Source: Microbotryum violaceum (taxonomy: Eukaryota). Taken from it: DNA of 64,000 nucleotides. Shown one piece after another: positions 1-48,826 of the stretch. The notes beneath the pieces were generated by a model that was not told where the DNA came from, did not search any database, and saw nothing but the letters and a program-made list of their open reading frames with translations. The translations under genes and the position numbers were made by a program. Positions within the stretch are counted from its first letter, which is position 1. Every line of letters starts with the position of its first letter. The stretch is from NCBI GenBank assembly GCA_001244265.2, contig CDLV01000010.1, forward strand, positions 992,001-1,056,000. Direction: 5' to 3'.

Positions 1-186
1 ACCTGAGGCCCGAGGCACGAGGTACGTAAGTAAGAGAGCCGAAGAAGAGAGTAAAGATAGTTGGAGAAGAGAGAGAAGCGCTAAGGGCGCACGCACTTGG
101 AAGGCTAGAGGTGCGCGCGCGGCTAATATCAACAACTAGATACTAAACTATTCTAAGTGGGATGAAACAGGAATACCCTTTTGACA
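1..186 (-). repeat. 3' LTR of the copia element (partial, truncated by the window edge)
   Basis: Starts TG at 186 directly after the PPT and matches 7453-7562. Confidence 0.9.
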
Positions 187-204
187 CCCCCCCCCCCCCC
201 CCCC
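187..204 (-). other. Polypurine tract (G18) of the copia element
   Basis: C18 on the + strand between the pol stop (211) and the LTR start (186). Confidence 0.85.
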
Positions 205-210
205 GTGCTG

Positions 211-4003
<3,793 letters not shown>

Positions 4004-4120
4004 TGTAATACCCCAGGCCCTTCACGACTAGGTTACACAGTCCAAAAGACTGACAATTTCAATAGATGCATATTGAAATCAGAAGGGTAGTTAAATAGCG
4101 TAAGGCAACCGAGCCTTACA
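4004..4120. mobile_element. 117-bp solo-LTR-like element at the copia/LINE junction
   Basis: TGTAA...TTACA inverted ends. Copia gag coding stops at its left edge and LINE ORF2 coding stops at its right edge. Flanks GACGG / CTCCC do not match. Confidence 0.7.
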
Positions 4121-5123
4121 CTCCCCCCATTCCGGTATTGCCTCCAGATCCTGCACCCTCCCCACCAAATACTCCATCCGTTCCGTCCGCTCCCGATGCA
4201 ACCTCCTCGCCATCTCCCCACCCCTATCCCTGCACGCCTTCAGAATGACCTTGAGCTCCCCCACCGGCTCCTCCCCGCTTGCCCCTTCCAACCATCCTTC
4301 CATCATCCGCTGGAATTCCACCGTCTTAAAGGTTGTGGTGTTGATTCGATGTGGTAGGTAGGCTGGGCTGTGGGAGGGTCGCATCAGGATCGTCTGAGAG
4401 AGCCAGCACAATCAAGACCGGTCGGTGATCGGAAAGCTCCTTGGGATAGTCGTAGATCGTCGAGGCCTGATCGAGTCTTTTTTGGTGTGTCCGTTGCAGG
4501 AGAAAGTAGTCAAGCCGGGAGAAGGAGTTGGGTCGCTTGCGATTGGGATTAGGTCGAGTGAAGGATGGGGTGATGGGGTGTTTGTAGCGGATGCAGTCCG
4601 TGTAGGCCGAGTCGAGCTTGCCGATCAGGATTGGCCAGTGGTGGCCGCGCCGACTTTGGTTCCGCCGATCGACTTCTGGGCGCGGGCAGTCGTTGAGATC
4701 ACCGCCAAAAAGTCGGAGGTGGGATTTCTGTGTTTTGTGAAATAAGAGTTTGTCAAAGAATTTCGCTCGTTGCTTTGGGTCAACGGGCGCGTAAACGATG
4801 TTGATTTCTAGAATTTTGATGTCACCCCGCAGACGAAAGGACGTGACGAGGAGCCGGCCGTCGAGTGCCGAGTGGGTGCGCAAGAGCTCGGCGTCGATCA
4901 GGGGAGAGTCAGCCGGAATTAGGATCAGACAATGTTGGTTGATGAAGAGCTTGCCCTCGTACTCGTCCTTGATGAGTTGCCAGAGGTGCGGTCTGATGAA
5001 GTGCTCTTGTATGAGAATGGCCGATGCTTTGAAAAGGGATAGGAAGTTGTAAATGTCACGTCGTTTCTCCGGGACCCCCATGCCCCTCCTCACGTTCCAG
5101 GTGATGATGGTGTGCTTAATCAT
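4121..5123 (-). pseudogene. LINE ORF2 N-terminus: apurinic-like endonuclease, frameshifted near 4350 and truncated
   Basis: APE motifs ITWNVR, ILIQEH, IVYAP, GGDLND, SRLDYFL, SDHRPV in ORF 4326-5123; continues in ORF 4091-4411. Confidence 0.92.
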
Positions 5124-7377
5124 TAATGGGCAGTTGAGGTCGAAGCGCTCTTGGCGGTGGTGACGTCCTCAAAGAGGGGGAGGGCGGGCAGGACATCGTC
5201 CTCGGGCTCGTGGTCGGACCATCTTTTCTCCTCGGCTACCCCCTTTGCTTTCCCTCGGTCCACTTTCGTCACGCCAACCGGCATCGCCGCCGCCGCTGAC
5301 ATCGACCTCGTCACCCTCCGCCCCTCTGTTCCATCCTTGACAACGACGCGGCTCTTCCCTTTGATGATCACTCGCTTGGCGTCGGTCGGTTCGTCACTCG
5401 GGTCACTGAGGTCCGCCGCAGTCTGCGACCTCTTCATTACCGGCTTTTTGAACTTCGAAGCGGTCCCCCTGATATTGATGGAACGTATCTCACCGTCCTC
5501 ATCCCACTTGGCAAAGTTGTGACGCACCAAAGGGGTTTCAGCGTTGAGCCTCCTCTCGATGCTTTGGTCCCGCTCGAGTTGTGCCTGCTCAACCCAGTTA
5601 GCTCTGATCCTGTCCCACTCCTCCCCCTCGCGAAGCGACTTGGCAAGAGTTTCGGGTGACAAAGGTGGGGTTGGTTCGTGGGGTGTCGATTCGCGGGAAG
5701 CGGTGGCGGCGGTTGCGGTTGCGTCGCTGTCGTCGTCATTGTCCAGCCTGTTCGTCTCCCCTAAGTCCGTCGCTTCCGCGTTCTCCGCTTTCGTCGCTCC
5801 CCCTGCCTCGTCCACATCGTCCACCTCCGTCGCCACCTCCCTTTCCTCCATCTCCGTCGCCACCTTGCCTTCTGTTTCGCCCCTTCCATCCGCCATCACC
5901 TCATCCTCATCAATCAACTCTCCATCGGATCCTCCGCAGTCCTCTAAAACCGACTCGTCCTCGCTCTTAAGTTTGATGACCTCCGTTTTTACGGTCGCCT
6001 CTGATTCCATCTCCGAGTCCTCCGAGTCCTCGTCATCCGCCTTATCACCAGCGTCCTCCTCCCCCGATTCCTCTGGCCCCTGTCCGCTCTGGCCAGTTAC
6101 CGCTTCCTCCTGTCCCTCCTCAACCTCGAGCCGGGCGAATCGATTCTGTGATGCGATCCTGTTAACAACTGGCACAGGAATGGGGGCCTCGGCCTCCACA
6201 ATGTTGGTGTCGTTGGTGATGGTGTTCTTGTTGGCGTTGGGGTTGCCGTTGCCGTTGCCGTTGTGAGCCTCCTTTCGCTTGCTCTCCTGATCCAGTCCGC
6301 AGGTTCCCACGTGACCAACGAAGTGGCACCTACCGCAAGCCGCCTCCTTCTCATAGTCATGGCAAAGGGCGGTGACGGGGATGCCTCGAGTGGGAAGGCC
6401 GATTCTCGAAGGTAGGATCTCTTTCAAGGTCGTGTTAGGGCGTTTGAACAGGGAGTCGTCATCGAAGTGTAGGAAAGCTGAGTAGTCTCCGGCAACGTGG
6501 GCAAAGGCCGAGGCGTTGTCCACGCTGATAATGCGCAGAACCTGCACAAGTTGGCACGAATGTCCCTTGCCTGACAAGTCCTGCACTAGTAATTGGAACG
6601 GTTTTATGATGGCATCCATGGAAGGCACTCCTTGAACACCGACGTTGATTCGAAGCTCGACCATGTTATGGTGGAACCTGTGAGATTTCGCGAAGCGGGC
6701 CTTCGCCGATCGCCAAGTGAGAGCAGGGGGCGTCGTAAGCGCAGCGTCACGTGCCTCGCCGGTGACGAACCCAACCGTAACGCGATGGTGAGCCGCCCCA
6801 TTACGCAGGATTGATGAATGTTGTACGCCTAGGCTAGGATCTGTGGTCGATAGGCTGCAAGGTGGTCCGGCAGAGGAACTCCAGGCTCAAAGCAGATAGG
6901 AGAGATCGGCGATAACAGCCTTGTGACGCAGGCCACGAGATCGGTCTTGTCGGCATGAGACGCTCGCGAGGCGCTCTGGTGGGACAGAGTCACTTCAAGG
7001 GCGTAATCAAAGATGTTCTCGACAGACCGGTTCGCGTTCAAGGCCGAGAATTTCAGCGATGTGGCGGTGGCGACGGGGTAGAGTTCGGCGAAGTAGATGG
7101 CCTGGACCCAACAATCCATGCGGTTTCCGGGTACAGCACCCATGGCTTGTAGGAGGCTGCCCAGAGCCTTGGCACGCTGTTGTTGTTGTTGCTGTTGTTC
7201 AGGTGACTGAGTCGCCTGACTCGCAGCGGCGGCATAGTTGGGTGCGGCGGTGGCGGGGCCCGTGGCTTGCGTCTTCTTCGAGCTTATCGGGATCTGGTCG
7301 CGGGGTGGCTGGACGCTGGTGGCGGACACCGGTGGTGGCGGTGCCGGCGGTGGGGACCCAGGGTCTCCTGTAGACAT
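5123..7377 (-). pseudogene. LINE ORF1 (nucleic-acid-binding, CCHC zinc knuckle, long acidic C-terminal region); one stop and one frameshift
   Basis: ORFs 6829-7377 and 6604-6801 share a frame across a TAG; 5123-6664 is in a shifted frame. Motif CGRCHFVGHVGTC. Lies directly upstream of the APE ORF. Confidence 0.78.
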
Positions 7378-7452
7378 CTTGTCGGTGTATCACTTGTTAA
7401 CTCGAGCATCGAAGACTGCGGTAGGGCGATTTCGAAGTGAAGTGAAGTGAAG

Positions 7453-7562
7453 AGCGCTAAGGGCGCGCGCACTTGGAAGGCTAGAGGTGCGCGCGCGGCT
7501 AATATCAACAACTAGATACTAAACTATTCTAAGTGGGATGAAACAGGAATACCCTTTTGACA
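7453..7562 (-). repeat. First 110 bp of the copia 5' LTR
   Basis: Direct repeat of 77-186. Confidence 0.9.
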
Positions 7563-7618
7563 GGTCAAAGCCTTTCCGATTAATGGAAGTAACCCAGGTT
7601 CGACTCCGGGTCCAGCCG
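7563..7618 (+). pseudogene. 3' portion of a tRNA gene (D-loop onward), cut off by the copia insertion; isotype not assignable
   Basis: GGTCAAAGC (D-arm end), TTTCC-7nt-GGAAG anticodon arm, CCAGG-TTCGACT-CCGGG T-arm/B-box, TCCAGCC acceptor strand, then a T-rich terminator-like tract. The anticodon loop is atypical. Confidence 0.62.
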
Positions 7619-8346
7619 TTCTTCTTCTTTTGTTGATCATTTCATGATCATCGTTGATTCCAACACATCGATCAAAGCGTTCAAACTGATGTTCGTGCGA
7701 CAAGTCATCCCGGAAGAGGATGCGCTCATGCAAGCCAACCCACCCGTTCACCTCCCAATTGTTCAGCTAGTCGCCTCTCTCGCTCGATTATCATCCCAGT
7801 CTTGCATTGGCTTTGCTGGTTGACGACGAGTGCTTGGGCTTCTTCAAGAAATGCTAGGGCCTGTTGAATGCCGTCCAGGTGTGTCCTGCTCCGTTGCGAC
7901 GAGCGTGAGTTATATAGAGTGTAAGCTCGCCTTTGCGGCTCGACGCACCCACAAAGAGTGACCTAACTTGAAAATCCTATCCCACCTGCGGATGCCAGTC
8001 CTTCCTGGCGCACTCTCAACGATCCTCACACCGCCAGCAGCCTCCCAGATCGATCGCACCTGATCCCACCCCAACAAGGGACAGCCTCCTAAACCGATCG
8101 AGCTTCCAGAATCAGAACTGCAGAACAACAGTTTGACGGCCTGCGCGCTTCTCGAGGCATCTGGAATCCCTCGCGGTCGATGCCATGGGCACACGAAGCC
8201 GTGTCGCCAGACGGACGTGCTCAAGCAACCATTTGCGACGTTGATGAATAGTCTGAGACATGTGGAAGCGGCGAATGCACCGTCATCCGATGAACCACCG
8301 GGACAGCACGGATGATTGCTTGGGGAAATTTGTTACGGCTCAGTCC

Positions 8347-8527
8347 TGTAAGGCGCCGCTCCGTAAGCGCATCACAACGACGTCAAGCTTGATCTCGCTC
8401 GCGACGCCGCGGCGCCTCTTGCCCTTAGTCCTTTTAGTAGTTTCTCTTCGTCCGCGACTTACGCCGTTTGATCCTTTCAGTTGGGACTCAGATTCAGTGA
8501 GGCTTGAGAGCCATTTTGCGCCTTTCA
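8347..8527 (+). mobile_element. Solo LTR, diverged relative of the 16886-17084 LTR
   Basis: TGTAAGGCGCCGCTCCG...CCTTAGTCCTTT...CCGTTTGATCCTTT...GATTCAGTGAGG...GCCTTTCA is colinear with the reverse complement of 16886-17084. No TSD seen. Confidence 0.78.
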
Positions 8528-9405
8528 AGAGGCTGGCTGCTTGTTTATTAGCTTGCGTCTGAGTTGTACTTCTGCTTCTCTCTCCTCCTTCATTTGCCCT
8601 CGCATTACGACTGACTGGAGTTTCGCTCCGGTGTATTCTTTGCGATGTTCATAGCGTCTCTCCCACCTATCCCAAACCCTTGGAAGCTCGACATATTGTC
8701 TGACTGAGAAACACCATCATGGTGTCCATCGAGATGTCCAGATATCGAAGGGCAGACTCAGATTCGGGGTGTGACACGGGCAAAGAGGTCTTCAAACTTG
8801 GCGTTCGTGTCGTAGCACTCGGGACTCAGTAATAGTGCCTGCCGGTCTGATAGGGGTGTGGTACTATGGTAAAGCAAGCGGTTGATCAAAGATGAAATGA
8901 AAAGATAAGGGATAAGGACCCTAAGAGCTCCTAAGAGACCCAAGGCGAGAGAGACAAGAGGGACGAGCAGAGCCAAGAGACAGGGGTTTGAGAGCCGAGA
9001 AACGAGACTGGGACGCTGAGGCCGGAGACTGGAGAACGATGCGAAACGAGACTTGAGACACCAGAAAGTGAGAACCAGCTAGGATGCTGTATCGGTTCCT
9101 AGAAGTGGTCTAACTAAGAACAAGAAGCAAAATCCCCTCAAACGTTCCGACCATTCAAACCGCTGGGCTCGGGTCATTCTCCTTCATCCCTTCGTCCGCG
9201 CATCCGGCCCGGTCTTCCATTCAAATCCGGCCACATGATTCGTCGCTGACAGTCAAGTCTTGAGTCACCGAAGTGCTAAGTTTACCCGAGCCTGCTTAAT
9301 CGCTAAGAATTCTGCCGAAACCGGCGTCTTGACCCTTCCCGAACCGGTGGAACTTGAAACGACTCCCGAACTCTGCCCAGCTAAAATGGTCCGAACCCGC
9401 TACGA

Positions 9406-9480
9406 CCGAAATGACTCCTGAACCCGGCACGCTATGTCCAAATGACTCTGAACCCGGCCCGCTATGTCCGAAATGACTCC
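9406..9480. repeat. ~31-bp tandem repeat (about 2.4 copies), possibly a transposon subterminal array
   Basis: Unit (G)AAATGACTC(C)TGAACCCGGCMCGCTATGTCC repeated, with weaker copies upstream. Confidence 0.65.
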
Positions 9481-10229
9481 GACGGGATCCCGAGTACCAC
9501 AGTACAGGTAGCCGTAGCATTACTCGTGAACTAGACAAAGAGGGCCAAAAGGTGTTGCCGGCAGGCCCTCCTCCACGCCCGGCATCCAAGAGCGGCTTTC
9601 ACCAGGTCCTGGCAACCGTAAGTACGGTGAAAGCCCCTGAACCCGCAGTCACAAGAATCTGCATCTTCATTGCTGATGAGACCGACCAATATTCCGGGCT
9701 AAATGTGGTGGGTGATTTCATCGATCTCGTTTGGTAGCCTGCACGGGTGAGAGCGCGTAAAGAAGTTGCTAGGCTGCAGTGTGGCAGCCTCGACGGGGGC
9801 GGCGCGACGAGCCACTCGGACGATGATGGGCGTCTTTGTCTTTCGTACTTTCGGTAGCGCGTGTTTTTACGTGAAGATCGCCTGGCCGGACGAACTCGAT
9901 TCGCGCAGGGTGATTGCCGTGAAGAAGACCGAGTCACATCTTGGGAAGTAGGGGTGGAGGCTAGGCTTAAATTTGCCCTGTTAGGAGCTTAGAGCTGTCG
10001 GAAATAATGAGTTGAGCCGCTGACCACCAAGTCATATGATTCGGCGTCTGTCGGTTGCGAGGGCTTTACGTTGTGTAGTCATCGTTTTCTTATATTGTGT
10101 TCCACCTGAAAAGGGCGTAGCGCATGCCTGAGGGCCAAGATGATCCGGTGGCTAATGCCGCGAGAACAAGAGTGTTGCCAGCCATGAAGCACGGTAGTGA
10201 GTAGTTTCTGGGTTGCGGCAAATGTGTAA

Positions 10230-10520
<291 letters not shown>

Positions 10521-10563
10521 TAGAAATCGCTCTTGTCTTCCTTCTGCAATCTTGATCTCATAG

Positions 10564-10803
<240 letters not shown>

Positions 10804-11856
10804 TAAAAGATGCAATCTGAGATCCAGTAAAATATTGTACAAACAAGGACTGTCTAGCCTTCCTTATTCGAGCACTGCACCATAATGGCACGTGAAGGAC
10901 ATTCTGTTGTTCCAGGAAGTCATGCTGATAGGCTCTGTGACGTAGATCAGTTTTTTGTTACTGAACATACCAGGAGCTCAGTTCAATATCAAACCGAGCC
11001 TTGTGTATTCTGAAAAGGGCTTCCTTGCCTCGCCTAGTACTACTAGTAGTAGCAACACGCGAAAACACGCAATCACCCACGGCAGCGCCTGATCGAGAGT
11101 CGCTTCGCCAAGACCTCCACAAGCTACTAGATTGGAGTTCATCGTTTTGTACACGTTTTGTGATCGTAGAACCCCGTATTTGCGAGCTCTTTCGCGCCGC
11201 CGTCCCGGGAGTGGGGATCAGCCTCAACACCTGCAAGAAGTCGGCAACCGAGTACCCACTCTGCAAGCATTCAAGAAGGTGCATCATGCTGTGGAAAAAG
11301 GATGTGGGTTCCCAAATGTTTGCTCAGCATCCGGGTGCCGGTCGATTTTGTGGATGATGACCTCCGCTCAAAAGTTTACCAGAAGCCTAAATATCAACAG
11401 CAGAGCGCGCCGCGGGTGCTCAGCTCTTGCTATAAAAAGAGTGCTTCCCCAACGCTTGAGAAATTCGGTAGTGTATCACACAATGCAGCGGTGGTGGAGA
11501 AGTGGTCTTAGGCCCCTGTCGCCGTCGCCGGGCCGTGTTCAGGCTGCAAAAAAAAAAAAGCCAGCCTTCCGACATGAGACCTAGGAATTCGCTGCTCCAA
11601 GGTTTTGATGCGCGCGCGTGACAAATTTTGCGATCTGCGCGCAATGCATAAAAAGCCAGGTCGAGAACGTTCAAGATGCTGCGCGAAGTTATTATGTCCT
11701 CAGCAAATGCGTCGCACTTGGACGAGACATGAAGCAAGCGGGACACGGCTTTGAATCTGTCCGAACTTGCTCCAATTATGTAAAAAACAGTGAACGTGAA
11801 CCACATACCGACCTCAGCAGCTACCCACCGGGCCGCAAAAAAGAATCTTTCTCAAA

Positions 11857-11929
11857 AGCCCGATGCGGGGCTCGAACCCGCGACAACTTGATTAAGAGTC
11901 AAGTGCTCTGCCGACTGAGCTAACCAGGC
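11857..11929 (-). tRNA. tRNA-Lys(CTT), intronless
   Basis: Reverse complement of GCCTGGTTAGCTCAGTCGGCAGAGCACTTGACTCTTAATCAAGTTGTCGCGGGTTCGAGCCCCGCATCGGGCT. Full cloverleaf with CTTGA-ctCTTaa-TCAAG anticodon arm and a downstream T-run. Confidence 0.96.
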
Positions 11930-12012
11930 CCAATAGGAGTTGTTTTATCTCATGGTAGCCCGCGTTGGTAGGGTTTCTATATTCCATCCGGCCACAATCA
12001 CAGGGGGGCGGC

Positions 12013-14471
12013 GACGCCGTCGTCGCCGTCGCGGCGGGCTTGGTTTCACTCAACTCGCTCCATGACCTGGCGCTCGACTGGAGGCATGCAACGAATGGCC
12101 GGCTCAACACGGACAAGACGGTCGTTCTACCGATCGAACGCCGCTAGGACCCGGGGCAACGCCTGCTCGTCGTCAAGGCCGCAGGCGAGTCGCTCGAGTG
12201 GATCGGCCTCCCCTTCGACCCCAGTGGGGACACCGAACTCGCCTACGCCAATCTCATCGAACGCCTCGAGGCGACACTGGAGCGCGGCTCACGCACCACA
12301 CCCGTGCCTTTTACGTCAATCGGTACGCCATCCCCAAGATCCTGCACTTCCTTGCAGCCGACATCCCACCGCCCGAAGTCGTCAATGAGCTCGATGACTG
12401 CTCGTCGATTTCGTCCGTGGGGGCAAGGGTAGGACCAGCTACGGCAGAGACATCGTGTTCACAGCCAAGCTCAAGGGGGGACTCGAGGTGATCAGGATAG
12501 ATCAGGATGCAGGACGTCGTGGACGCGTTTGCGGCACGGATCTGGGACGTTCTTCTCGGCACTCCACCGAGCTCAGCCCGACCTCGACCTGGCCACCGAT
12601 CTCTGGCCACATCCATCCACTCCATCCCCAACGACCTCCATCCCCGATGGCGAGCAGCACTGGAGGTTCCGAAACATCACAACGCGCAGGTCAACCCGAG
12701 GGCCTTGACCACCGCGAACCTGCTCGCGCTGCCCACCCTGCTCGGCAGCCTCCACACCCCCATCAGAGGGAGACAGACCATCGACGCGGTTCATGTACCT
12801 GACTACCTTCGTCTCCAGGGCTACCCGAAGGTGGCGGGTCTTTATCGGCCTGAGTTGGATGCGGGTGGGATGCGGGTGTGGGGCTTCACCTTTGGACGCC
12901 GCCGGCGGATGTGCTCGGCGACAACAGCGAATACGATCGATGCGGGCTCCCGCAGCGACTGGAAATCGCGGCCTGGTACCGGTTCACTGTCGATCGACAC
13001 AAGAACACGCCCTTGGCGGTGGGGGTGGCGGCGGGACGGCTCAACGTGCCTCCCCGGATCGGCACCAGCGCACCGCTCGAGGCGATTCTCCCCAAGCCCG
13101 TGGCCCGCTTCGCAATGGAGCAGCGCCTTCCGGACCCGGTGCTTCCACAGCAGGCGAGCCAGTACAAGCTGCTGAACATGGCTCGACCGTACACCATCCG
13201 TCGCATCCGCCGGGTCCTGAACGCGAAGGCCTTTACCAACACGCTCGGGCTCAAGGGACCACCGCAGCCGGACGACCTCAGGAGCTTTTGGAAGGCGGTC
13301 AACACGAAGGCACTGACGGCGAGGGAGAGGGAAGTTTGGTTCAAGCTGATTCTCCGCTTCACCCCGACGCGCAAGCTGCAACACCAACAAAACCACGACA
13401 CTTCTCCCGCGTGCCTCGTCTGCGAAGCGCCGGTGGACGACACCGACCACTACTTTTTCGGCTGCGTTGACTCGCGGAACGTCTGGATCGCGGCAAGGGG
13501 CGTGCTCTGCGACGCACTCGGGTGCAACACGATCGAGGACGCCCAGTACACGACACTGCAACGGCTCTTTGGCCTCCCCAAGCTCAAGGCCAAGCTCAGC
13601 GAACAGGAAGGGGCGGGCAGGACGATCGAGATCTTCACAGGGATGGTTTTGGAGATGATCAGCAGTGGGAGATGGACGATGCAGAAGCAAGGGACGAGGA
13701 TGGAGAGCGTGGAGAGGAGGAGGGTGGTACTGGAGGAGAGGATGAAGTTGAGGGCGGGAGGAGCAAGAGGCCGGCGAGGGCGGGCAGTAGAGGCCGGGTT
13801 CGTATTCCCCCCCCCCCCCCCCCCCCCACCCCACCCCAAGCCCACACACCCCATCACACTTCATCTTCCAACGAAACACTGTATTCTACATATCTTGCCT
13901 TCCTTTTTTCATACGTTACAGGACTGCTTTCGTTGCTTATGGACCGGCTCGCGATTTGGGATTGACTCGACGGTGGCTCGCGCTCTTTGGCTTCGGGGTT
14001 CCGAGTCAAGGGAGGGATCAGCAGATACAGGCAGAAAGTCGGTTTTGAGGAGCCAGGGACTGCTGAGGTGGAGGTTTTGAGGGGTTCCACCGCGTCTTGT
14101 TGTGACCGAGCATAGACTTGGGACTTCGCGGGTCAGGGTAGCTGCGCAGTCGCTCTCCTGTCTTTGTCTCGACCGAGTTGGGAAGTGGGTGCGGGGTGGG
14201 CCTCTTGTCGTTAGTAAATCGTTTTATTACTCTTTCTCTTCCTTCTCTCTCTCTCTCCTCCTCATTCGTCTCCTGGGGGAGGGGCAAACCGCTTGGCTGG
14301 GGCACTTGAATCCGAAGTATCGGATTGGTGGACACCGGCCCGTTTCTCGCATCTTGCGGGCGGTTTGTGTTATCATCGGCGACTTCCATTAGTTTTTCCG
14401 TAGGCCAATCAGGGGGAACATGAACTGGGGGCAATATGATGAACAAGCTCTACAAAAACAAAAACAAAAAC
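12013..14471 (+). mobile_element. 5'-truncated L1-like LINE: RT C-terminal half, CCHC zinc finger, 3' UTR, (CAAAAA)n tail, 10-bp TSD
   Basis: Begins at the ADD motif region (DAVVAV...ATNGRLNTDKT). Thumb-like TRAFYVNRYAIPKILH; zinc finger CLVC...DDTDHYFFGC. Tail ACAAAAACAAAAACAAAAAC. TSD GGGGGGCGGC at 12003-12012 and 14473-14482. Frameshifts and a stop make it non-coding. Confidence 0.9.
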
Positions 14472-14472
14472 G

Positions 14473-14617
14473 GGGGGGCGGCTACCGCGTGTTTGGGTCA
14501 CTTGAAACTCGCATCCCGCGGGCCGTTCTTGTTGTCATCGTCGAACTGCATCTAGTGTTTGGGCTAAACAGGGGAACCAAGAACTGGAGGCAATACGACG
14601 AATGTTCCTACAAAAAC
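14473..14617 (+). mobile_element. Older, heavily 5'-truncated copy of a related LINE 3' end
   Basis: Colinear with ~14275-14459: CACTTGAA...CTCGCATC..GCGGGC...TCATCG...CAGGGG...GAACTGG.GGCAATA.GA.GAA...CTACAAAAAC. Confidence 0.75.
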
Positions 14618-14955
14618 TTGGGAGGGGTAGCCATGGGGAGCTCACGTACCATAGTACAATGACTGACTTACTATTTTGAGGCTCTAACCCACCGCAAAGG
14701 AAGCGGAGTTGTGGCAGATGATATCGGATCGGGGAGGAGACTTGGGTACAAGGGCCTGAAGCGAGAAGGGTGCCCTTGTCGACTGCGCGATGCGGAGTTG
14801 AGCGCCGGTGGGATCGTTGAAGATCGCTCAAGCATTCGACCAATTTGTGTCATTCGCTGTCTTCACAAAACTGAACATGTAGAGTTCTTACGCGTAACTC
14901 TACTCTACTTCAAAGCTGGGATGCCTTCGCTGTTGTCCGAGACACAACCCCACTC

Positions 14956-15001
14956 TGTAAGGCGCCGCTCCGCTTACGCCTCACGGCGACTTCGAGCCAA
15001 C
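14956..15001 (+). repeat. 46-bp LTR fragment at the inner end of the left arm
   Basis: Identical to one end of the 16886-17084 solo LTR and breaks off at 15001. Confidence 0.85.
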
Positions 15002-15518
15002 GTTCGTCGCGAGTTGCCGACTTGGTCAGTCGAGCGTTGTGAACCTGCACAAAGATTCAAGATTCGTGAGTCCCCCGTCAGTCAACCTGGGATAAACTGA
15101 TCCGAACACTGATCCGAACACCCAACGACGTACCTCAGCACCCGACCTGGATTTTCAGAATGTGATGGATCAATGGAATGGGGAGTTTGTGGTGAATCTC
15201 GCCCAGGATCAACATGTTTTTCGTCACCTTGGGCGCCATTTCACCATAAACCTATTACGTGAAGCATTGCAGGGCACATTGCGGGCCTGCTCGACGGCCT
15301 CCAGTGGCGGACTCATAGATTTTGCTGGAAAGTTATTTTTGTAGAAATCACGGTGTTATATGGACCAACTACTTCCTGAATATATGCTCCTTAGCCTCAT
15401 TGAATAAAATCAAGTGAAGCGCCTTTTGATGGGATTTTAGCACAGAAACTTGTTGGGGTCAAGAAAGCAATCCGCCCGCTCGTGTGCAAGTACAGGCTTT
15501 GCAGTTACATATACGAAG

Positions 15519-15749
15519 TGTAAGCGAGGTCAAACGTCAAGCGCGCGTTAAGCGATCCTTAAGCAGGGCGAGTCATCGCAGCGCTGGCTATGCGCGGATT
15601 ATGAGGTTCACCCAATTCAGCCGCGCGCGTATGCGTCCTTATGCACACCTTATGCACCGTTAAGCGCTGTTAAGCGCGCGTAATCTCGGGCGAATCCTTA
15701 AGCGGGTTCGCGCGCGTGGCCATGTTGCTCTTGCCCCCCCCCCTTACTG
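15519..15749. repeat. Cluster of TTAAGCG/TTATGC motifs ending in C-run-TTACTG; possible orphan DNA-transposon end
   Basis: About ten short related motifs in 230 bp; no partner end found in the window. Confidence 0.4.
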
Positions 15750-15790
15750 AAAATATGCAAGCTCCGCACTGACCATCGAGGTAAGACGGC

Positions 15791-16657
15791 TTGGTTGGTC
15801 TGGAGGACGAGAGGGGGATATTAATCAACCGAGCGGGATCCTTGACCGTAGTTGCCAGCAAGGTCAGCTTCCGCGCCAAGGGCGGTGTCGTCCCTCCGTT
15901 GGGTCTCCTCTGGGCGGCCGAGCGTCGGCATCTGGCGCCAACGACGACGGGCGAAATCGATCAGGCGCTGCGAGAACAACCGGGTCGTGACCCGATCAAG
16001 AGTTTGTCCAATAGGGAGAACGCCGTCGCTAGCTTCGATAAGGAGCCGATTCAGTTCAATGATGCCCTGTGGTTGATCCGCGCCTTTGTCAACGACTACC
16101 TCGGCTCTGATGGTGGCGTCGTGTACACGAGTCCGATCGACGACCCCGCAGTCCCCGACGACGTTCAAGGGCGGTCGATCGCGAGCCTGTTCCCGTACTT
16201 TCTCCAGTACAGGGGTCTCATCAGCCACCCATGGGCCGAATACTTGCTCTCGTGGTGCGATGACCTCGGCACCCACGGCAAAGATTTTGCGGCGAACATC
16301 GCTTTGTTCCGAGACGTCACAACGAAGCGCGACTACCGAAACTTGAAGGGCACGGCGATCACGATTCAACCCATCACACCCACCTCTACTTCCTCGGCTC
16401 CTTCGACGTCGCCGATACCTCCATTGAGGGGCAGCGGAGTAGAAGTGGACCCCTCCACGCTTGAGCCTCGTCCTGTCGCAAGCAGCCCGTCGCGCTCGCC
16501 GAGGTCCTCGGCACGGTCGTCCACGCCAACTGCATCATCGTCGACAAGTCTACCGACCGGTGTCGCTGGACCGGTTCCATCAACCTTGTCGGCTCTGGGG
16601 AGGCGAACGCGGGCCAGGGTGGTGGAAAGCGAGGAGAAGGAGGAGGAGGAAGCCTAG
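15791..16657 (+). CDS. Hypothetical 288-codon ORF in the inverted-repeat spacer; probably a 5'-truncated gene or TE fragment
   Basis: Long open frame with protein-like composition and a Ser/Pro-rich then acidic tail. No in-frame ATG and no recognised domain. Confidence 0.4.
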   Translation: MVGLEDERGILINRAGSLTVVASKVSFRAKGGVVPPLGLLWAAERRHLAPTTTGEIDQALREQPGRDPIKSLSNRENAVASFDKEPIQFNDALWLIRAFVNDYLGSDGGVVYTSPIDDPAVPDDVQGRSIASLFPYFLQYRGLISHPWAEYLLSWCDDLGTHGKDFAANIALFRDVTTKRDYRNLKGTAITIQPITPTSTSSAPSTSPIPPLRGSGVEVDPSTLEPRPVASSPSRSPRSSARSSTPTASSSTSLPTGVAGPVPSTLSALGRRTRARVVESEEKEEEEA

Positions 16658-16885
16658 GAGCATCGGTAGGACGTTTGTGGACTCGGTTTGTGCTATTTCG
16701 TGGATTCTTTTGTGCTATTTCGTGGGTTCGTTCGTGCTGGTTAGAACATCAGTACCCATTTGCTGCAGTCTACGTGTCAATAGACCTGTATTGTTCAGGA
16801 ATTTTCGATTACGACGTACTCGGGGGGTTGGAGTGGACTGGGCCGAGCGCCCACCCCTTTCGGTATCATGGCGGTCCGACGAGTG

Positions 16886-17084
16886 TGAAAGGCACGAGAT
16901 TGCTCTCGAACCTCACTGAATCGAATCTAAACATAAAGGATCAAACGGTTTATTCGCAGGCGGAGAAAGACTACTTAAAGGACTAAGGTCAAGAGACGCG
17001 GCGGCGCCGCGCGCGAGGGCAAGCGTGAGGCCGCAGAGGTTGGCTCGAAGTCGCCGTGAGGCGTAAGCGGAGCGGCGCCTTACA
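16886..17084 (-). mobile_element. Intact 199-bp solo LTR with 5-bp TSD
   Basis: TG...CA ends, flanked on both sides by GAGTG (16881-16885, 17085-17089). Confidence 0.9.
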
Positions 17085-17422
17085 GAGTGGGGTTGTGTCT
17101 CGGACAACAGCGAAGGCATCCCAGCTTTGAAGTAGAGTAGAGTTACGCGTAAGAACTCTACATGTTCAGTTTTGTGAAGACAGCGAATGACACAAATTGG
17201 TCGAATGCTTGAGCGATCTTCAACGATCCCACCGGCGCTCAACTCCGCATCGCGCAGTCGACAAGGGCACCCTTCTCGCTTCAGGCCCTTGTACCCAAGT
17301 CTCCTCCCCGATCCGATATCATCTGCCACAACTCCGCTTCCTTTGCGGTGGGTTAGAGCCTCAAAATAGTAAGTCAGTCATTGTACTATGGTACGTGAGC
17401 TCCCCATGGCTACCCCTCCCAA

Positions 17423-20024
17423 GTTTTTGTAGGAACATTCGTCGTATTGCCTCCAGTTCTTGGTTCCCCTGTTTAGCCCAAACACTAGATGCAGTTCGAC
17501 GATGACAACAAGAACGGCCCGCGGGATGCGAGTTTCAAGTGACCCAAACACGCGGTAGCCGCCCCCCCGTTTTTGTTTTTGTTTTTGTAGAGCTTGTTCA
17601 TCATATTGCCCCCAGTTCATGTTCCCCCTGATTGGCCTACGGAAAAACTAATGGAAGTCGCCGATGATAACACAAACCGCCCGCAAGATGCGAGAAACGG
17701 GCCGGTGTCCACCAATCCGATACTTCGGATTCAAGTGCCCCAGCCAAGCGGTTTGCCCCTCCCCCAGGAGACGAATGAGGAGGAGAGAGAGAGAGAAGGA
17801 AGAGAAAGAGTAATAAAACGATTTACTAACGACAAGAGGCCCACCCCGCACCCACTTCCCAACTCGGTCGAGACAAAGACAGGAGAGCGACTGCGCAGCT
17901 ACCCTGACCCGCGAAGTCCCAAGTCTATGCTCGGTCACAACAAGACGCGGTGGAACCCCTCAAAACCTCCACCTCAGCAGTCCCTGGCTCCTCAAAACCG
18001 ACTTTCTGCCTGTATCTGCTGATCCCTCCCTTGACTCGGAACCCCGAAGCCAAAGAGCGCGAGCCACCGTCGAGTCAATCCCAAATCGCGAGCCGGTCCA
18101 TAAGCAACGAAAGCAGTCCTGTAACGTATGAAAAAAGGAAGGCAAGATATGTAGAATACAGTGTTTCGTTGGAAGATGAAGTGTGATGGGGTGTGTGGGC
18201 TTGGGGTGGGGTGGGGGGGGGGGGGGGGGGGGAATACGAACCCGGCCTCTACTGCCCGCCCTCGCCGGCCTCTTGCTCCTCCCGCCCTCAACTTCATCCT
18301 CTCCTCCAGTACCACCCTCCTCCTCTCCACGCTCTCCATCCTCGTCCCTTGCTTCTGCATCGTCCATCTCCCACTGCTGATCATCTCCAAAACCATCCCT
18401 GTGAAGATCTCGATCGTCCTGCCCGCCCCTTCCTGTTCGCTGAGCTTGGCCTTGAGCTTGGGGAGGCCAAAGAGCCGTTGCAGTGTCGTGTACTGGGCGT
18501 CCTCGATCGTGTTGCACCCGAGTGCGTCGCAGAGCACGCCCCTTGCCGCGATCCAGACGTTCCGCGAGTCAACGCAGCCGAAAAAGTAGTGGTCGGTGTC
18601 GTCCACCGGCGCTTCGCAGACGAGGCACGCGGGAGAAGTGTCGTGGTTTTGTTGGTGTTGCAGCTTGCGCGTCGGGGTGAAGCGGAGAATCAGCTTGAAC
18701 CAAACTTCCCTCTCCCTCGCCGTCAGTGCCTTCGTGTTGACCGCCTTCCAAAAGCTCCTGAGGTCGTCCGGCTGCGGTGGTCCCTTGAGCCCGAGCGTGT
18801 TGGTAAAGGCCTTCGCGTTCAGGACCCGGCGGATGCGACGGATGGTGTACGGTCGAGCCATGTTCAGCAGCTTGTACTGGCTCGCCTGCTGTGGAAGCAC
18901 CGGGTCCGGAAGGCGCTGCTCCATTGCGAAGCGGGCCACGGGCTTGGGAGAATCGCCTCGAGCGGTGCGCTGGTGCCGATCCGGGGAGGCACGTTGAGCC
19001 GTCCCGCCGCCACCCCACCGCCAAGGGCGTGTTCTTGTGTCGATCGACAGTGAACCGGTACCAGGCCGCGATTTCCAGTCGCTGCGGGAGCCCGCATCGA
19101 TCGTATTCGCTGTTGTCGCCGAGCACATCCGCCGGCGGCGTCCAAAGGTGAAGCCCCACACCCGCATCCCACCCGCATCCAACTCAGGCCGATAAAGACC
19201 CGCCACCTTCGGGTAGCCCTGGAGACGAAGGTAGTCAGGTACATGAACCGCGTCGATGGTCTGTCTCCCTCTGATGGGGGTGTGGAGGCTGCCGAGCAGG
19301 GTGGGCAGCGCGAGCAGGTTCGCGGTGGTCAAGGCCCTCGGGTTGACCTGCGCGTTGTGATGTTTCGGAACCTCCAGTGCTGCTCGCCATCGGGGATGGA
19401 GGTCGTTGGGGATGGAGTGGATGGATGTGGCCAGAGATCGGTGGCCAGGTCGAGGTCGGGCTGAGCTCGGTGGAGTGCCGAGAAGAACGTCCCAGATCCG
19501 TGCCGCAAACGCGTCCACGACGTCCTGCATCCTGATCTATCCTGATCACCTCGAGTCCCCCCTTGAGCTTGGCTGTGAACACGATGTCTCTGCCGTAGCT
19601 GGTCCTACCCTTGCCCCCACGGACGAAATCGACGAGCAGTCATCGAGCTCATTGACGACTTCGGGCGGTGGGATGTCGGCTGCAAGGAAGTGCAGGATCT
19701 TGGGGATGGCGTACCGATTGACGTAAAAGGCACGGGTGTGGTGCGTGAGCCGCGCTCCAGTGTCGCCTCGAGGCGTTCGATGAGATTGGCGTAGGCGAGT
19801 TCGGTGTCCCCACTGGGGTCGAAGGGGAGGCCGATCCACTCGAGCGACTCGCCTGCGGCCTTGACGACGAGCAGGCGTTGCCCCGGGTCCTAGCGGCGTT
19901 CGATCGGTAGAACGACCGTCTTGTCCGTGTTGAGCCGGCCATTCGTTGCATGCCTCCAGTCGAGCGCCAGGTCATGGAGCGAGTTGAGTGAAACCAAGCC
20001 CGCCGCGACGGCGACGACGGCGTC
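17423..20024 (-). mobile_element. Duplicated LINE stack (old 3' end 17423-17567 plus 5'-truncated LINE 17569-20024)
   Basis: Mirror image of 12013-14617. Confidence 0.88.
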
Positions 20025-20107
20025 GCCGCCCCCCTGTGATTGTGGCCGGATGGAATATAGAAACCCTACCAACGCGGGCTACCATGAGATAAAACAACTC
20101 CTATTGG

Positions 20108-20180
20108 GCCTGGTTAGCTCAGTCGGCAGAGCACTTGACTCTTAATCAAGTTGTCGCGGGTTCGAGCCCCGCATCGGGCT
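20108..20180 (+). tRNA. tRNA-Lys(CTT), intronless
   Basis: Cloverleaf with A-box TAGCTCAGTCGG, B-box GGTTCGAGCC, anticodon CTT and a T6 terminator shortly downstream. Confidence 0.96.
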
Positions 20181-20763
20181 TTTGAGAAAGATTCTTTTTT
20201 GCGGCCCGGTGGGTAGCTGCTGAGGTCGGTATGTGGTTCACGTTCACTGTTTTTTACATAATTGGAGCAAGTTCGGACAGATTCAAAGCCGTGTCCCGCT
20301 TGCTTCATGTCTCGTCCAAGTGCGACGCATTTGCTGAGGACATAATAACTTCGCGCAGCATCTTGAACGTTCTCGACCTGGCTTTTTATGCATTGCGCGC
20401 AGATCGCAAAATTTGTCACGCGCGCGCATCAAAACCTTGGAGCAGCGAATTCCTAGGTCTCATGTCGGAAGGCTGGCTACGGGAACAAGATGATCATGGA
20501 ATGGACACTGTGCCGAGACGATCGGTAGTGAGCTGCCAGTGACCCCGACTTCGGTGGCCGACGCTGGGATCTACGATGCAAGTCAAGATGCACTGGGAAC
20601 GGAGATGAAACGGTGAACTTGATGGAGTTTTGCCACACGGGAATCGAAATAAGGGACTGCTATTGGACGCATTTCTCACCAAGCTCGAGACCGCCAAAGT
20701 AGCAGACAGTGACTGTCGATTGCAAGAGCGGCTTTTGTACACTAAAATTCAAAGGAAGCGCAT

Positions 20764-47300: not shown

Positions 47301-48826
47301 GTGGAACTGGACCGAGAAGAACGGGCGCTCGGTCGAGTAGATGCCTTCGTTGGAGCCGTCGTTGGCGTTGACGAAGAGCTCCTTCCAACCTTGCTTAAGC
47401 GTGGCCGTGTCGACAGCGTAACCGTGGTTCTGCGAGGTGATGTAGCATCGACCGCTAACGAGCGAGGTGCAAGGGATGTTGGCACCTCGGTTGCCGTACT
47501 TGAGCTTGAGGGTGCTTGCACCACTGGCTCGGGCGAGCAATTGGTGGCCGAGACAGATCCCAAAAATGGGGAAGTTGCCGAGCTCGATCGCCTTGGCGAG
47601 GACGGTTGTCGTCGCGGTCAAGGTGGCCGGGTCACCGGGGCCGTTTGACAGGAACAACCCATCAAAGGGCTCTTCAGTCGGGGTGAGATAGTTGTAGTCG
47701 TACGGGACGACCTTGAGCTCGACGCCTCGCTTGGTGAAGCATCGAATCTGGTTGTACTTCATGCCGACGTCGACGCAAAGGACTCGCAGGGCCCGGCCCG
47801 ACGGGTGCAATAGGGGCTTGACGGTGCCGTCGGGCTCATAGAGGGTCGCCTTGCGAGTCGACACGGCACCAACGAGGTTGTCGCCATTGGGGTCGTGGTA
47901 CTCGATTTTTTCATACGCCTTGCGCCATTCGGCACCGGACGAGAGTGCTTCGGCACCGGCGACGGGCGCTGAAAGACGACCGATGGTGCTGCCTCGTTCG
48001 CGCAACTTTTTGGTGAGGTCACGCGTGTCGACACCAAAGATGGCGGGAACGCCTTCCTCCTTGAGCCATTCGGCGAGCTCGGTTTTGGCGGCGTGATTGG
48101 AGAAATCTTCACCTGCGCCCGAGTAGTTGCCGACAACCAAACCGGCGACGTGAATTTTGTAAGATTCAAACTCGCTCGGCAACTTGGCAGGGTCGACGAC
48201 ACCCTTGGACGGCCGCGCGGGAACACCGTACGAGCCGATGAGCGGGTAGGTCAAAATGAGAATTTGGCCGGCGTACGAGGGGTCGGTCAAGGACTCGGGG
48301 TATCCAACCATGCCTGAGTGGTGTTAGGTCAGATAGCGGAGGAAGGGCGCGACGCGAGCGAGGACGGAGAAAGCAAATTCACAGGAGACGAGACGTGTCG
48401 TGTCAGCTTGGAATGATCATAGCATTCCAAAAAATACCATACTCTCGTGGACTGACCGGTCTGGAACACACACTCTCCAGCAATGGACTTTTCGGCGCCG
48501 AAAGAGAAGCCTTCGTACGCGCTGCCGTCGGCAAGTTCGAGCAGCATCTTCTTGGTCGAGACATGGTTCGAACTCGACTCCGAGGTAGGCGCGAACTGGT
48601 GCTTGATCTCGGCCGTGGTCGGGTAGGTCGTCGGGGGTACGGGTTGACCGAACGGCCTGGTCGCGTCGGGGGAGAGCGAACGTACGGCGGAGGACGAGGT
48701 GACGGCCGCGGATGAGGCAGCACCGGCCAAGGGGGACGAGGCCGGGTTGGAGCTGGGCGAGGCCGTCGGACGCAGGGGAGGCGAGCGAGCCGAAGCCGGG
48801 TCGAATTCGAACGAGGAGGTGCTCAT
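41399..48826 (-). CDS. URA2: Multifunctional carbamoyl-phosphate synthase / pseudo-dihydroorotase / aspartate transcarbamylase
   Basis: GATase ([20 protein letters not shown]); CPS ([45 protein letters not shown]); ATCase ([29 protein letters not shown]). Confidence 0.98.

What the first reader, a model, noticed from the sequence alone, without database searches (positions are those of the whole stretch)
11857..14617. Candidate tRNA-gene-targeted (TRE5-like) LINE system in a basidiomycete
Seen: a 5'-truncated L1-like LINE (12013-14471, TSD GGGGGGCGGC) starts 84 bp upstream of tRNA-Lys with its 5' end facing the tRNA. The duplicated 10-mer appears to be the first bases of an older truncated LINE end (GGGGGGCGGCTACCGCGTGTTTGGGTCACTTGAA vs GGGGGAGGGGCAAACCGCTTGGCTGGGGCACTTGAA in the younger 3' UTR). 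So the older copy began ~74 bp upstream in the same orientation and was pushed outward. With the 7452 insertion, all three independent LINE insertions share this geometry, and the target sequences differ. Established: Dictyostelium TRE5-A inserts ~50 bp upstream of tRNA genes in fixed orientation via TFIIIB; yeast Ty1/Ty3 (LTR elements) target Pol III genes. I do not know of a description for a basidiomycete LINE. Inference: convergent, position-specific Pol III targeting. n=3, and the two large fragments do not overlap, so shared family membership is unproven.
Basis: partly seen in the sequence, partly recalled or inferred. Interest (0 to 1): 0.85.

Follow-up and report, generated by a model that had tools for sequence, protein, structure and literature searches.

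The report
LINE nest upstream of a tRNA-Lys gene
Two copies of one jumping gene (a LINE) of the anther-smut fungus Microbotryum landed one after the other at the same spot about 75-85 bases in front of a lysine tRNA gene, which hints at, but does not prove, tRNA-directed insertion of the kind known so far only from social amoebae.

Summary
The core observation is real. A 5'-truncated L1-like LINE (12013-14471, +) is flanked by a perfect 10-bp duplication (12003-12012 / 14473-14482). It lies 74-83 bp upstream of an intact tRNA-Lys(CTT) gene (11856-11930, -), in divergent orientation. The duplicated 10-mer is the start of an older, diverged LINE 3' stub (to 14617). So one site was used twice.

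New here:
- The organism is a Microbotryum.
- Fragments 4121-7447 and 12013-14471 belong to the same LINE family; one 1966-aa Microbotryum protein matches both at 95%.
- The whole tRNA/LINE locus is duplicated as a 3.44-kb palindrome (17039-20478), so the second tRNA-Lys is not an independent case.
- The '7452' case is weak. That LINE abuts a 115-bp copia LTR copy, followed by a 5'-cut, tRNA-like piece of a high-copy repeat, not a tRNA gene.

That leaves n = 2 nested events at one tRNA, plus one ambiguous case. The decisive genome-wide distance and orientation test could not be run because no genome is held for this window. My searches found no description of a tRNA-targeted LINE in fungi.

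Verdict: partly supported. P(Pol III-linked targeting) is about 0.4.

The parts
11856..11930 (-). Intact tRNA-Lys(CTT) gene, followed on its own strand by T4 and T6 runs
   Evidence: ARAGORN. Rfam RF00005 at 65.6 bits, 11857-11929. Sequence and downstream T runs printed.
11931..12002 (.). Spacer between the tRNA gene and the insertion site. It is not LINE sequence.
   Evidence: Sequence. A contig of run X1 covers 11559-12003 at about twice single-copy depth and ends where the repeat begins (table 8, record 5).
12003..12012 (+). Left copy of the 10-bp target-site duplication GGGGGGCGGC
   Evidence: the 10-mer occurs on the + strand only at 12003 and 14473.
12013..14471 (+). LINE B, a 5'-truncated copy. 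It holds the end of RT, the zf-RVT region, the C-terminus of ORF2 and a 3' UTR of about 0.7 kb with a (CAAAAA)3C tail. It is degenerate, with frameshifts and small duplications.
   Evidence: Pfam zf-RVT. blastx/tblastn to P0001 aa 1391-1955, 95% over aa 1663-1955. Indels relative to other copies at 12398, 12490, 12560, 12621 and 12869 (tables 4 and 5c).
14473..14482 (+). Right copy of the target-site duplication. It is also the first bases of the older stub.
14472..14617 (+). Older LINE 3' stub of about 145 bp, ending in CTACAAAAAC, in the same orientation as LINE B
   Evidence: Aligns to the last ~190 bp of the LINE B 3' UTR: 102 of 147 identical, with a 34-bp gap. 0 of 500 shuffles reach the score; blastn E = 2e-10.
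17039..20478 (-). Inverted duplicate of 11559-15001. It carries a second tRNA-Lys (20107-20181, +), a second LINE B (about 17568-20024) and a second stub. These are copies, not independent insertions.
   Evidence: blastn 99.913% over 3443 bp, 0 mismatches, 3 gaps. tRNA. Contigs of the arms have about 2x depth in X1, X9 and X10 (table 8).
4121..7447 (-). LINE A: the 5' end, ORF1 (CX2CX4HX4C knuckle) and the APE endonuclease of the same LINE family. It is cut at 4121 in mid-ORF2, before RT.
   Evidence: Pfam Exo_endo_phos. Collinear with P0001 aa 19-1021 at 95-96%. A LINE-depth contig of X9 ends at 7448 (record 26).
7448..7562 (-). Copy of the short LTR of the copia element at the window start. 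It lies between LINE A and the tRNA-like piece.
   Evidence: 66-186 matches 7444-7562 at 96.7%; alignment. At 186/187 the same sequence follows a G17 polypurine tract and the end of copia pol.
7563..7618 (+). tRNA-like 3' piece (T arm and acceptor strand, then a T run). It is part of a high-copy repeat and is not a called tRNA gene.
   Evidence: Rfam tRNA only as a 5'-cut match, model positions 17-71, 12.1 bits, E = 5.7. Not called. 15-20 contigs per run cover 7608 and 7644, and they read T at 7608, which would pair in the T stem (table 3).
187..4120 (-). Internal part of a Ty1/copia element (gag knuckle, integrase, RVT_2) that abuts the cut end of LINE A
   Evidence: Pfam RVT_2, rve, gag_pre-integrs, zf-CCHC_5. 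Junction read.

Best explanation
The region is a nest of two copies of a high-copy, L1-like (APE-RT-zinc finger) LINE family of Microbotryum.

1. A short 5'-truncated copy, the stub, inserted by target-primed reverse transcription about 74 bp upstream of an intact tRNA-Lys(CTT) gene, with its 5' end facing the gene.
2. A second, 2.46-kb copy of the same family later inserted at the same distance and in the same orientation. It duplicated the first 10 bp of the stub and pushed the stub outward.
3. Still later, the whole 3.44-kb locus was duplicated as a palindrome.

My preferred reading of the site reuse is a real local integration preference tied to the Pol III gene. Either the pre-initiation complex (TFIIIB/TFIIIC) or the chromatin it organises guides the LINE's first nick to a narrow zone upstream of the tRNA gene. 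This is as in Dictyostelium TRE5, but about 30 bp further out.

Shown: the anatomy, the duplication, the order of events and the family identity.
Inferred: that the tRNA gene is the cause of the site choice, and any protein contact.
For: - The perfect 10-bp duplication sits exactly at the element's ends. It occurs nowhere else in the 64 kb apart from the mirrored copies.
- The stub is significantly homologous to the LINE 3' UTR and begins with the duplicated 10-mer, so the same spot was hit twice in the same orientation.
- Stacking of new copies at a fixed distance, with older ones pushed outward, is what position-specific targeting predicts.
- The tRNA gene is intact and has terminator T runs.
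- The orientation is opposite to the tRNA, as the review states for TRE5.
- tblastn with 47 LINE proteins finds only three LINE regions in the 64 kb: 4115-7377, 12046-13750 and its mirror copy 18289-19991. Both independent fragments point their 5' ends at a tRNA or tRNA-like sequence about 84-100 bp away.
- The family has dozens of copies. In X9 depth is about 330-1900 against 22-26 for single-copy parts. That is not more than the 134 tRNA genes reported for M. lychnidis-dioicae (passage) could accommodate.
- With 392 LINE copies, 134 tRNA genes and 26.1 Mb, random placement predicts about 0.1 LINE ends within 100 bp upstream of a tRNA in this orientation in the whole genome. This is my own arithmetic.
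Against: - There is only one intact tRNA locus. Its two events are not fully independent, because the second could have been drawn by the first copy rather than by the tRNA.
- The finding was picked because it looked like this, so chance coincidences are enriched.
- The third case is not at a tRNA gene. The tRNA-like piece lacks positions 1-16 (box A region), scores only 12 bits, and is separated from LINE A by an LTR copy.
- Both readable 3' junctions are followed by G-rich sequence (GGGGGGGCGGC; TTGGGAGGGG), which fits a sequence preference.
- The distance (-74 to -83) is outside the 44-54 bp window given for TRE5.
- Two other copies seen through joints have their truncated 5' ends next to other repeats: 5323|16886 and 9502|14086 (table 5). 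Only joints within the laid stretch can be seen, so this is weak.
- No genome-wide test was possible.
Confidence: 0.4

Rival explanations
1. The preference is for a sequence or for the element itself, not for the tRNA. The endonuclease prefers a G-rich motif that also occurs in the LINE's own 3' UTR (GGGGGAGGGGC at 14276-14286). The second copy therefore homed to the 5' end of the first, and proximity to the tRNA is incidental.
For: - The duplicated target GGGGGGCGGC is LINE-derived sequence, homologous to the 3' UTR motif.
- The stub's 3' flank is also G-rich, TTGGGAGGGGTAGCC.
- Known fungal L1-type elements can be sequence-directed: Zorro3 goes to poly(A) tracts (passage).
Against: - Runs of six or more G or C are common, 32 in this 64 kb. 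A pure motif preference makes a second hit in the same run very unlikely.
- Among the 15 of 23 joints shown, none links a LINE 3' end to the internal motif of another copy; 8 joints were not shown.
- It does not explain why the independent LINE A also faces a tRNA-like sequence.
Confidence: 0.25
2. The pattern reflects chance and survival. LINEs insert more or less anywhere but persist only in gene-poor, TE-tolerant DNA. This window's first 20 kb is such a TE nest, and the tRNA gene merely lies within it.
For: - The left 20 kb holds copia, LINE A, an LTR copy, a tRNA-like repeat and further high-copy stretches (8751-9632, 10074-10955, 16689-17100).
- LINE A itself is nested with a copia element.
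- The genome is compact; the mean distance between coding sequences is given as 1.2 kb. Selection against genic insertions should therefore be strong.
- The finding is a post hoc pick from a very large scan.
Against: Reuse of the same 10 bp in the same orientation is not explained by tolerance of a region several kb wide. The TSD is sharp, and the second insertion lies exactly at the stub's edge rather than anywhere in it.
Confidence: 0.3

Closest known systems
TRE5 (TRE5-A/B/C) tRNA gene-targeted non-LTR retrotransposons of Dictyostelium discoideum
   Same: - Two ORFs. ORF2 has APE, RT and a zinc-finger region; the review files TRE5 under L1.
- Insertion upstream of a tRNA gene in the opposite transcriptional orientation (passages).
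- Here: APE-RT-zf-RVT, divergent orientation, and repeated use of one site.
   Different: - The distance is 74-83 bp here, against 44-54 bp for TRE5.
- Only one tRNA locus has been seen.
- ORF1 here is far longer, about 745 aa by the positions of the ATG at 7378 and the ORF end at 5123, with a frame shift near 6830-6886. It carries a CCHC knuckle, whereas TRE5-A ORF1 is given as 51 kD of unknown function.
- No TFIIIB contact was tested.
- The host is a basidiomycete, so any shared behaviour would be convergent.
NLTR-B of Polysphondylium pallidum and NLTR-A of D. purpureum
   Same: Non-LTR elements, filed under L1 in the review, that sit at set distances upstream of tRNA genes: 39-64 bp and 2-6 bp (passage).
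   Different: They are amoebozoan, with different distances. Relatedness to the Microbotryum family was not tested.
Zorro3 of Candida albicans (fungal L1-superfamily LINE)
   Same: A fungal L1-type LINE with an ORF1 zinc finger and a defined target preference (passages).
   Different: Zorro3 targets poly(A) tracts with no known regional preference. Here the tail is (CAAAAA)n and the target is G-rich, next to a tRNA gene.
Human LINE-1 ORF2p (solved structures 8uw3, 8c8j, 8sxt)
   Same: It is the best solved-structure match of the family's RT: E = 8e-22, against 1e-13 for R2 proteins. The APE-RT order is the same.
   Different: The match covers only the RT core (about 250 aa). L1 has no Pol III targeting and carries a poly(A) tail.
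Ty1 and Ty3 LTR retrotransposons of yeast
   Same: They integrate upstream of Pol III genes through contacts with Pol III or TFIIIB (passages, and listings).
   Different: They are integrase-based LTR elements, with a different mechanism from target-primed reverse transcription.

Membership tests
L1-like (APE-type) non-LTR retrotransposon | N-terminal apurinic/apyrimidinic-type endonuclease in ORF2 | tested here: met
   Pfam Exo_endo_phos in 4326-5168(-), E = 8.8e-10, and in the full-length relatives P0001, P0009 and P0010.
L1-like (APE-type) non-LTR retrotransposon | Reverse transcriptase domain, closest to L1 among references | tested here: met
   RVT_1 in P0001, P0009 and P0010. Best PDB match is human L1 ORF2p at E = 8e-22, against R2 at 1e-13. 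The window itself holds only the RT end in LINE B. No clade phylogeny was made, so L1, Tx1 and Tad1 are not resolved.
L1-like (APE-type) non-LTR retrotransposon | Marks of target-primed reverse transcription: 5' truncation, 3' A-rich tail, target-site duplication | tested here: met
   LINE B starts at about aa 1367 of 1966. It has a (CAAAAA)3C tail and a perfect 10-bp duplication.
TRE5-type tRNA gene-targeted LINE | Most copies in the genome lie at a set distance upstream of tRNA genes | not testable with these tools
   No genome is held. Read laying shows no flanks outside the stretch. The metagenome scan gave 2 distant loci with no tRNA.
TRE5-type tRNA gene-targeted LINE | Insertion window 44-54 bp upstream of the mature tRNA coding sequence | tested here: not met
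   The duplication lies at -74 to -83 and the element starts at -84. The TRE5 window is taken from a passage seen.
TRE5-type tRNA gene-targeted LINE | Opposite transcriptional orientation to the tRNA gene | tested here: met
   LINE B and the stub are on +, the tRNA-Lys on -, and the LINE 5' ends face the gene. This is one locus with two events.
TRE5-type tRNA gene-targeted LINE | ORF1 protein binds TFIIIB subunits | not tested
   No TBP, Brf1 or Bdp1 sequence of this fungus was in hand, so no complex prediction was sent.
Sequence-specific LINE (Tx1/R1-like behaviour; family names recalled, from no call) | The same target sequence at all insertion sites | tested here: inconclusive
   Only two 3' junctions are readable. 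Both are followed by G-rich sequence but they are not identical. The LINE A site is lost.

The most novel reading that the evidence does not exclude
A basidiomycete (Microbotryum) L1-like LINE family has independently evolved position-specific integration about 75-85 bp upstream of Pol III-transcribed tRNA genes, and perhaps of tRNA-derived repeats, in fixed divergent orientation. This would be the first tRNA gene-targeted non-LTR retrotransposon outside the dictyostelid amoebae and a third independent origin of tRNA-gene 'safe haven' targeting.
Probability: 0.35. Interest if true: 0.65.

Novelty: new member of a known kind. Interest (0 to 1): 0.42.

Why it matters
Targeting of tRNA genes is the textbook example of how mobile elements survive in compact genomes. 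For LINEs, the 2018 review's table lists it only from social amoebae (passage). My five literature searches turned up no fungal case.

A fungal LINE with the same habit would show that target-primed reverse transcription can be steered to Pol III genes more than once in evolution. It would also offer a second, genetically tractable system for asking how a LINE's proteins read the Pol III pre-initiation complex.

If the genome-wide test fails, this is an ordinary nested LINE insertion in a TE-rich region.

Tried and rejected
2. A tRNA gene at the 7452 end. ARAGORN with introns, Rfam at gathering score and Rfam at E <= 10 on 7300-7800 found none. Only when the stretch was started at 7563 did a 5'-cut tRNA match appear, at 12.1 bits and E = 5.7.
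3. My idea that LINE A keeps the LINE's true 3' end. It rested on a 13-base match, CTGGAGGCAATAC, near 4121 (E = 0.6). I rejected it: LINE A is collinear with P0001 only to aa 1021 and breaks at 4121 within coding sequence.
4. The rest of LINE A lying just left of the copia LTR (1-65). No frame there encodes the continuation of P0001.
5. The tRNA-like piece as a read-through copy of the copia primer tRNA. I rejected this by reasoning on orientation: the piece lies before the U3 start, not after U5. No call tested it.
6. A simple solo LTR at 7448-7562. The 5-bp flanks differ (TGAAG / GGTCA, read). How the copia, the LTR copy and LINE A came together stays unresolved. One deletion after a LINE insertion at the LTR edge is my guess.
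7. Metagenome scan with an alignment of 7 ORF2 proteins. It gave 2 loci at 22-25% identity with no tRNA on either, which is uninformative.
8. Read laying.
   - Runs X10 and X15 gave almost no cover in 11838-12278, and X15 none in 15807-16688.
   - The X15 contig on the tRNA flank ends at 11930.
   - I draw nothing from these gaps.
   - No joint across 12013-14472 (an empty site) was among the 15 of 23 joints shown.
9. Protein Atlas on ORF1. The best score was 0.87, below the 0.9 lead threshold. It pointed to CCHC-knuckle clusters only.
11. No RT phylogeny was made, because no reference LINE sequences could be brought in.
Full report
WHAT IS IN THE SEQUENCE

ARAGORN and Rfam agree on two tRNA genes in the 64 kb. 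Both are tRNA-Lys(CTT), at 11856-11930 (-) and 20107-20181 (+), each at 65.6 bits. The first is followed on its own strand by T4 and T6 runs. Upstream of it there is first a 72-bp spacer, then the 10-mer GGGGGGCGGC (12003-12012). A LINE fragment follows, starting at 12013 and ending in (CAAAAA)3C at 14471. Then come one extra G and the same 10-mer at 14473-14482.

In the whole window the 10-mer occurs only at these two places and at their mirror images, 17558 and 20025. Counted from the Rfam start of the tRNA (11929), the duplication covers -74 to -83 and the element starts at -84. The LINE is on the + strand and the tRNA on the - strand, so the LINE's 5' end faces the gene.

THE STUB

The 145 bp after the duplication (to 14617, ending CTACAAAAAC) align to the last ~190 bp of the larger copy's 3' UTR. 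102 of 147 aligned bases are identical, there are 37 gap columns, and one gap is 34 bp long. The local alignment score is 50.5, against 8.9 +/- 1.3 for 500 shuffles, none of which reaches it. blastn gives E = 2e-10 for 116 bp at 75%.

The stub begins with the duplicated 10-mer, which corresponds to GGGGGAGGGGC in the other copy's UTR. So an older, short copy lay with its 5' end about 74 bp from the tRNA. A second copy then inserted into the stub's first 10 bp in the same orientation. I could not read the stub's own duplication. Its 3' flank (TTGGGAGGGGTAGCC) resembles the G-rich start, which may reflect microhomology at the truncation point, but that is only an inference.

WHAT THE ELEMENT IS AND WHOSE IT IS

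The 280-aa endonuclease ORF of the other LINE fragment (4326-5168, -) found 47 longer proteins. All but one are from Microbotryum silenes-dioicae, M. saponariae and M. intermedium; the best is 96% identical. The window therefore comes from a Microbotryum, an anther-smut fungus of the Pucciniomycotina.

P0001 is a 1966-aa gene model that fuses ORF1 and ORF2.
- It matches 4121-7447 (LINE A) at 95-96% over aa 108-1021.
- It matches 12872-13750 (LINE B) at 95% over aa 1663-1955.
- It gives a weaker, frameshifted match over aa 1391-1665.

The two large fragments do not overlap each other, but they are parts of one family.

Full-length relatives carry Exo_endo_phos, RVT_1 and zf-RVT. Among solved structures the RT is closest to human L1 ORF2p (E = 8e-22) and next to R2 proteins (1e-13). 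ORF1 has a CX2CX4HX4C knuckle (read) and no Pfam match. 'L1-like' is fair. The clade (L1, Tx1 or Tad1) is not resolved, because I could make no reference phylogeny.

LINE B is not pristine. Compared with other copies it has:
- one-base losses at 12398 and 12621;
- a 10-bp and an 11-bp tandem duplication, at 12490 and 12869;
- a 34-bp loss at 12560 (tables 4 and 5c).

COPY NUMBER AND AGE

I laid Logan contigs of four runs on 3900-17100. In run X9 the single-copy parts have depth 22-26, LINE A about 330 and LINE B 420-1900. The family therefore has dozens of copies with the usual 3' excess.

Contigs that run from within the LINE B tail (14393-14411) through the duplication and the stub to 14982 are present in X1, X9 and X10, which carry three different organism labels. 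The nest is therefore older than the split of these closely related lineages.

First, 11559-15001 is repeated in inverted orientation at 17039-20478, with 0 mismatches and 3 gap positions over 3443 bp. Contigs of the arms have about twice the single-copy depth in X1 (372-380 against 197-260), X9 (51 against 22-26) and X10 (13 against 5-8) (table 8). The palindrome is therefore probably real and not an assembly error. The second tRNA-Lys with its LINE is a copy and adds no independent event.

Second, the '7452' case is not at a tRNA gene.
- LINE A's 5' end is at 7447/7448; a LINE-depth contig of X9 ends at 7448.
- Next to it lies 7448-7562, which is 96.7% identical to 66-186.
- At 186/187 that same sequence follows a G17 polypurine tract and the C-terminal end of a Ty1/copia pol (RVT_2, rve). 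It is therefore the start of a short copia LTR on the minus strand.
- Only after this LTR copy comes 7563-7618. That piece has a T arm, an acceptor strand and a T run. The tRNA model matches it only as a 5'-cut piece (positions 17-71) at 12.1 bits and E = 5.7. No tool calls it a tRNA.
- The piece belongs to a high-copy repeat: 15-20 contigs per run cover 7608 and 7644. They read T at 7608, which would restore a pair in the T stem (table 3).
- LINE A is also cut at 4121 in the middle of ORF2, where copia internal sequence begins. Its 3' junction and duplication are therefore lost.

If the tRNA-like piece were complete, its start would lie about 99 bp from LINE A's 5' end, in divergent orientation. 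That is curious, but the 99 bp are mostly the LTR copy, and the box A region is missing. I count this case as ambiguous.

HOW IT MOST LIKELY WORKS

The shown steps are two target-primed insertions at one spot, followed by a palindromic duplication. Three readings could explain why that spot was used.

(a) A Pol III-linked position preference.
- It predicts exactly this stacking: each new copy lands at the same distance from the gene and pushes older copies outward.
- It predicts the fixed divergent orientation that the review gives for TRE5.
- It would also account for the independent LINE A facing a tRNA-derived sequence.

(b) A preference for a G-rich motif that the LINE itself carries.
- It explains why the target is LINE sequence and why both readable 3' junctions are followed by G runs.
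- However, runs of six or more G or C are frequent, 32 in this window. A second hit in the same run would be rare.

(c) Chance plus survival in a TE-tolerant region.
- It fits the TE-rich left 20 kb.
- It fits the post hoc choice of this finding from a very large scan.
- It does not fit the reuse of the same 10 bp.

The M. lychnidis-dioicae paper gives 26.1 Mb, 134 tRNA genes and 392 LINE copies (passages). From those figures, random placement would give about 0.1 LINE ends within 100 bp upstream of a tRNA in this orientation per genome (my arithmetic). I put (a) at about 0.4, (b) at 0.25 and (c) at 0.3.

COMPARISON WITH WHAT IS KNOWN

The 2018 review of Pol III-targeted retrotransposons lists, as non-LTR cases, only TRE5, TRE3, NLTR-A and NLTR-B, all from dictyostelids. 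It gives TRE5 as 44-54 bp upstream in opposite orientation, with ORF1 binding TBP, Brf1 and Bdp1 (passages only). The 2016 survey of compact genomes found no TRE-like elements outside dictyostelids among the amoebozoans it examined (passages).

A 2020 review of yeast TEs gives Zorro3 as poly(A)-targeted and Cnl1 as telomeric, and names no tRNA-linked LINE in fungi (passages). Five full-text searches returned no paper describing a tRNA-associated LINE in Microbotryum or any basidiomycete. This covers only the held library, and supplements were closed.

The element works like TRE5 in orientation and in site reuse. It fails the TRE5 distance window, and the defining genome-wide association and the TFIIIB contact could not be tested. 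I therefore do not file it as a TRE5-type element. It is a member of the APE-type, L1-like LINEs.

VERDICT

- Observation: partly confirmed.
- Interpretation: partly supported, with the decisive test still open.
- As things stand, this is a well-documented nested LINE insertion upstream of a tRNA gene in Microbotryum, with a fair chance (about 0.35-0.4) of being the first sign of tRNA-gene targeting by a fungal LINE.

Noticed in passing
window 11559-15001 and 17039-20478: A 3.44-kb perfect palindrome: 0 mismatches and 3 gap positions, with a 2.04-kb spacer at 15002-17038. It duplicates the tRNA-Lys gene, LINE B and the stub. Depth is about 2x in three runs, so it is probably real. The left outer edge follows an A12-13 run at 11547-11559.
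   Followed up: partly
window 7563-7647: A tRNA-like sequence (T arm, acceptor strand, T run) plus about 30 bp downstream is present in many copies per genome; 15-20 contigs per run cover it. It could be a tRNA-derived SINE or a pseudogene family. The M. lychnidis-dioicae genome paper lists 0 SINEs, and a 2024 survey found no tRNA-bearing LTR elements (Helenus) in Microbotryum.
   Followed up: partly
window 62-4120 and 7448-7562: A Ty1/copia element on the minus strand, with a G17 polypurine tract and a very short LTR of about 115-125 bp. A second copy of the LTR lies 7.3 kb away, on the far side of LINE A. The 5-bp flanks do not match, so the order of events (LINE into copia, then a deletion?) is unresolved. 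The sequence after 4120 forms a perfect 7-bp hairpin, GTAAGGC/GCCTTAC, where a primer-binding site would be expected.
   Followed up: partly
window 8383-8527 and 16886-17028: A 145-bp inverted repeat at 79% identity, 8.4 kb apart. 16689-17100 is high copy (about 30-40x). Another LINE copy elsewhere in the genome has its truncated 5' end joined to a copy of 16886 onward (joint 5323|16886). These may be ends of a DNA transposon.
   Followed up: no
window 8751-9632 and 10074-10955: Further high-copy stretches (15-50x single-copy depth) lie between LINE A and the tRNA-Lys gene. 9380-9480 holds short tandem units, and variable joints occur at 9421-9502.
   Followed up: no
window 12480-12500 and 12860-12880: LINE B carries two small tandem duplications, of 10 bp and 11 bp. 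It also lacks 34 bp at 12560 that other copies have. These explain its broken reading frame.
   Followed up: yes
window 41947-48323 (-): A large multi-domain pyrimidine-synthesis gene: glutamine amidotransferase, two carbamoyl-phosphate synthase halves and aspartate carbamoyltransferase. It is URA2/CAD-like and shows that the right part of the window is ordinary gene-bearing DNA.
   Followed up: no
window 13805-13830: A run of about 20 C, followed by CACCCCACCCC, lies right after the ORF2 stop of LINE B. Contigs break there (skipped repeats).
   Followed up: no
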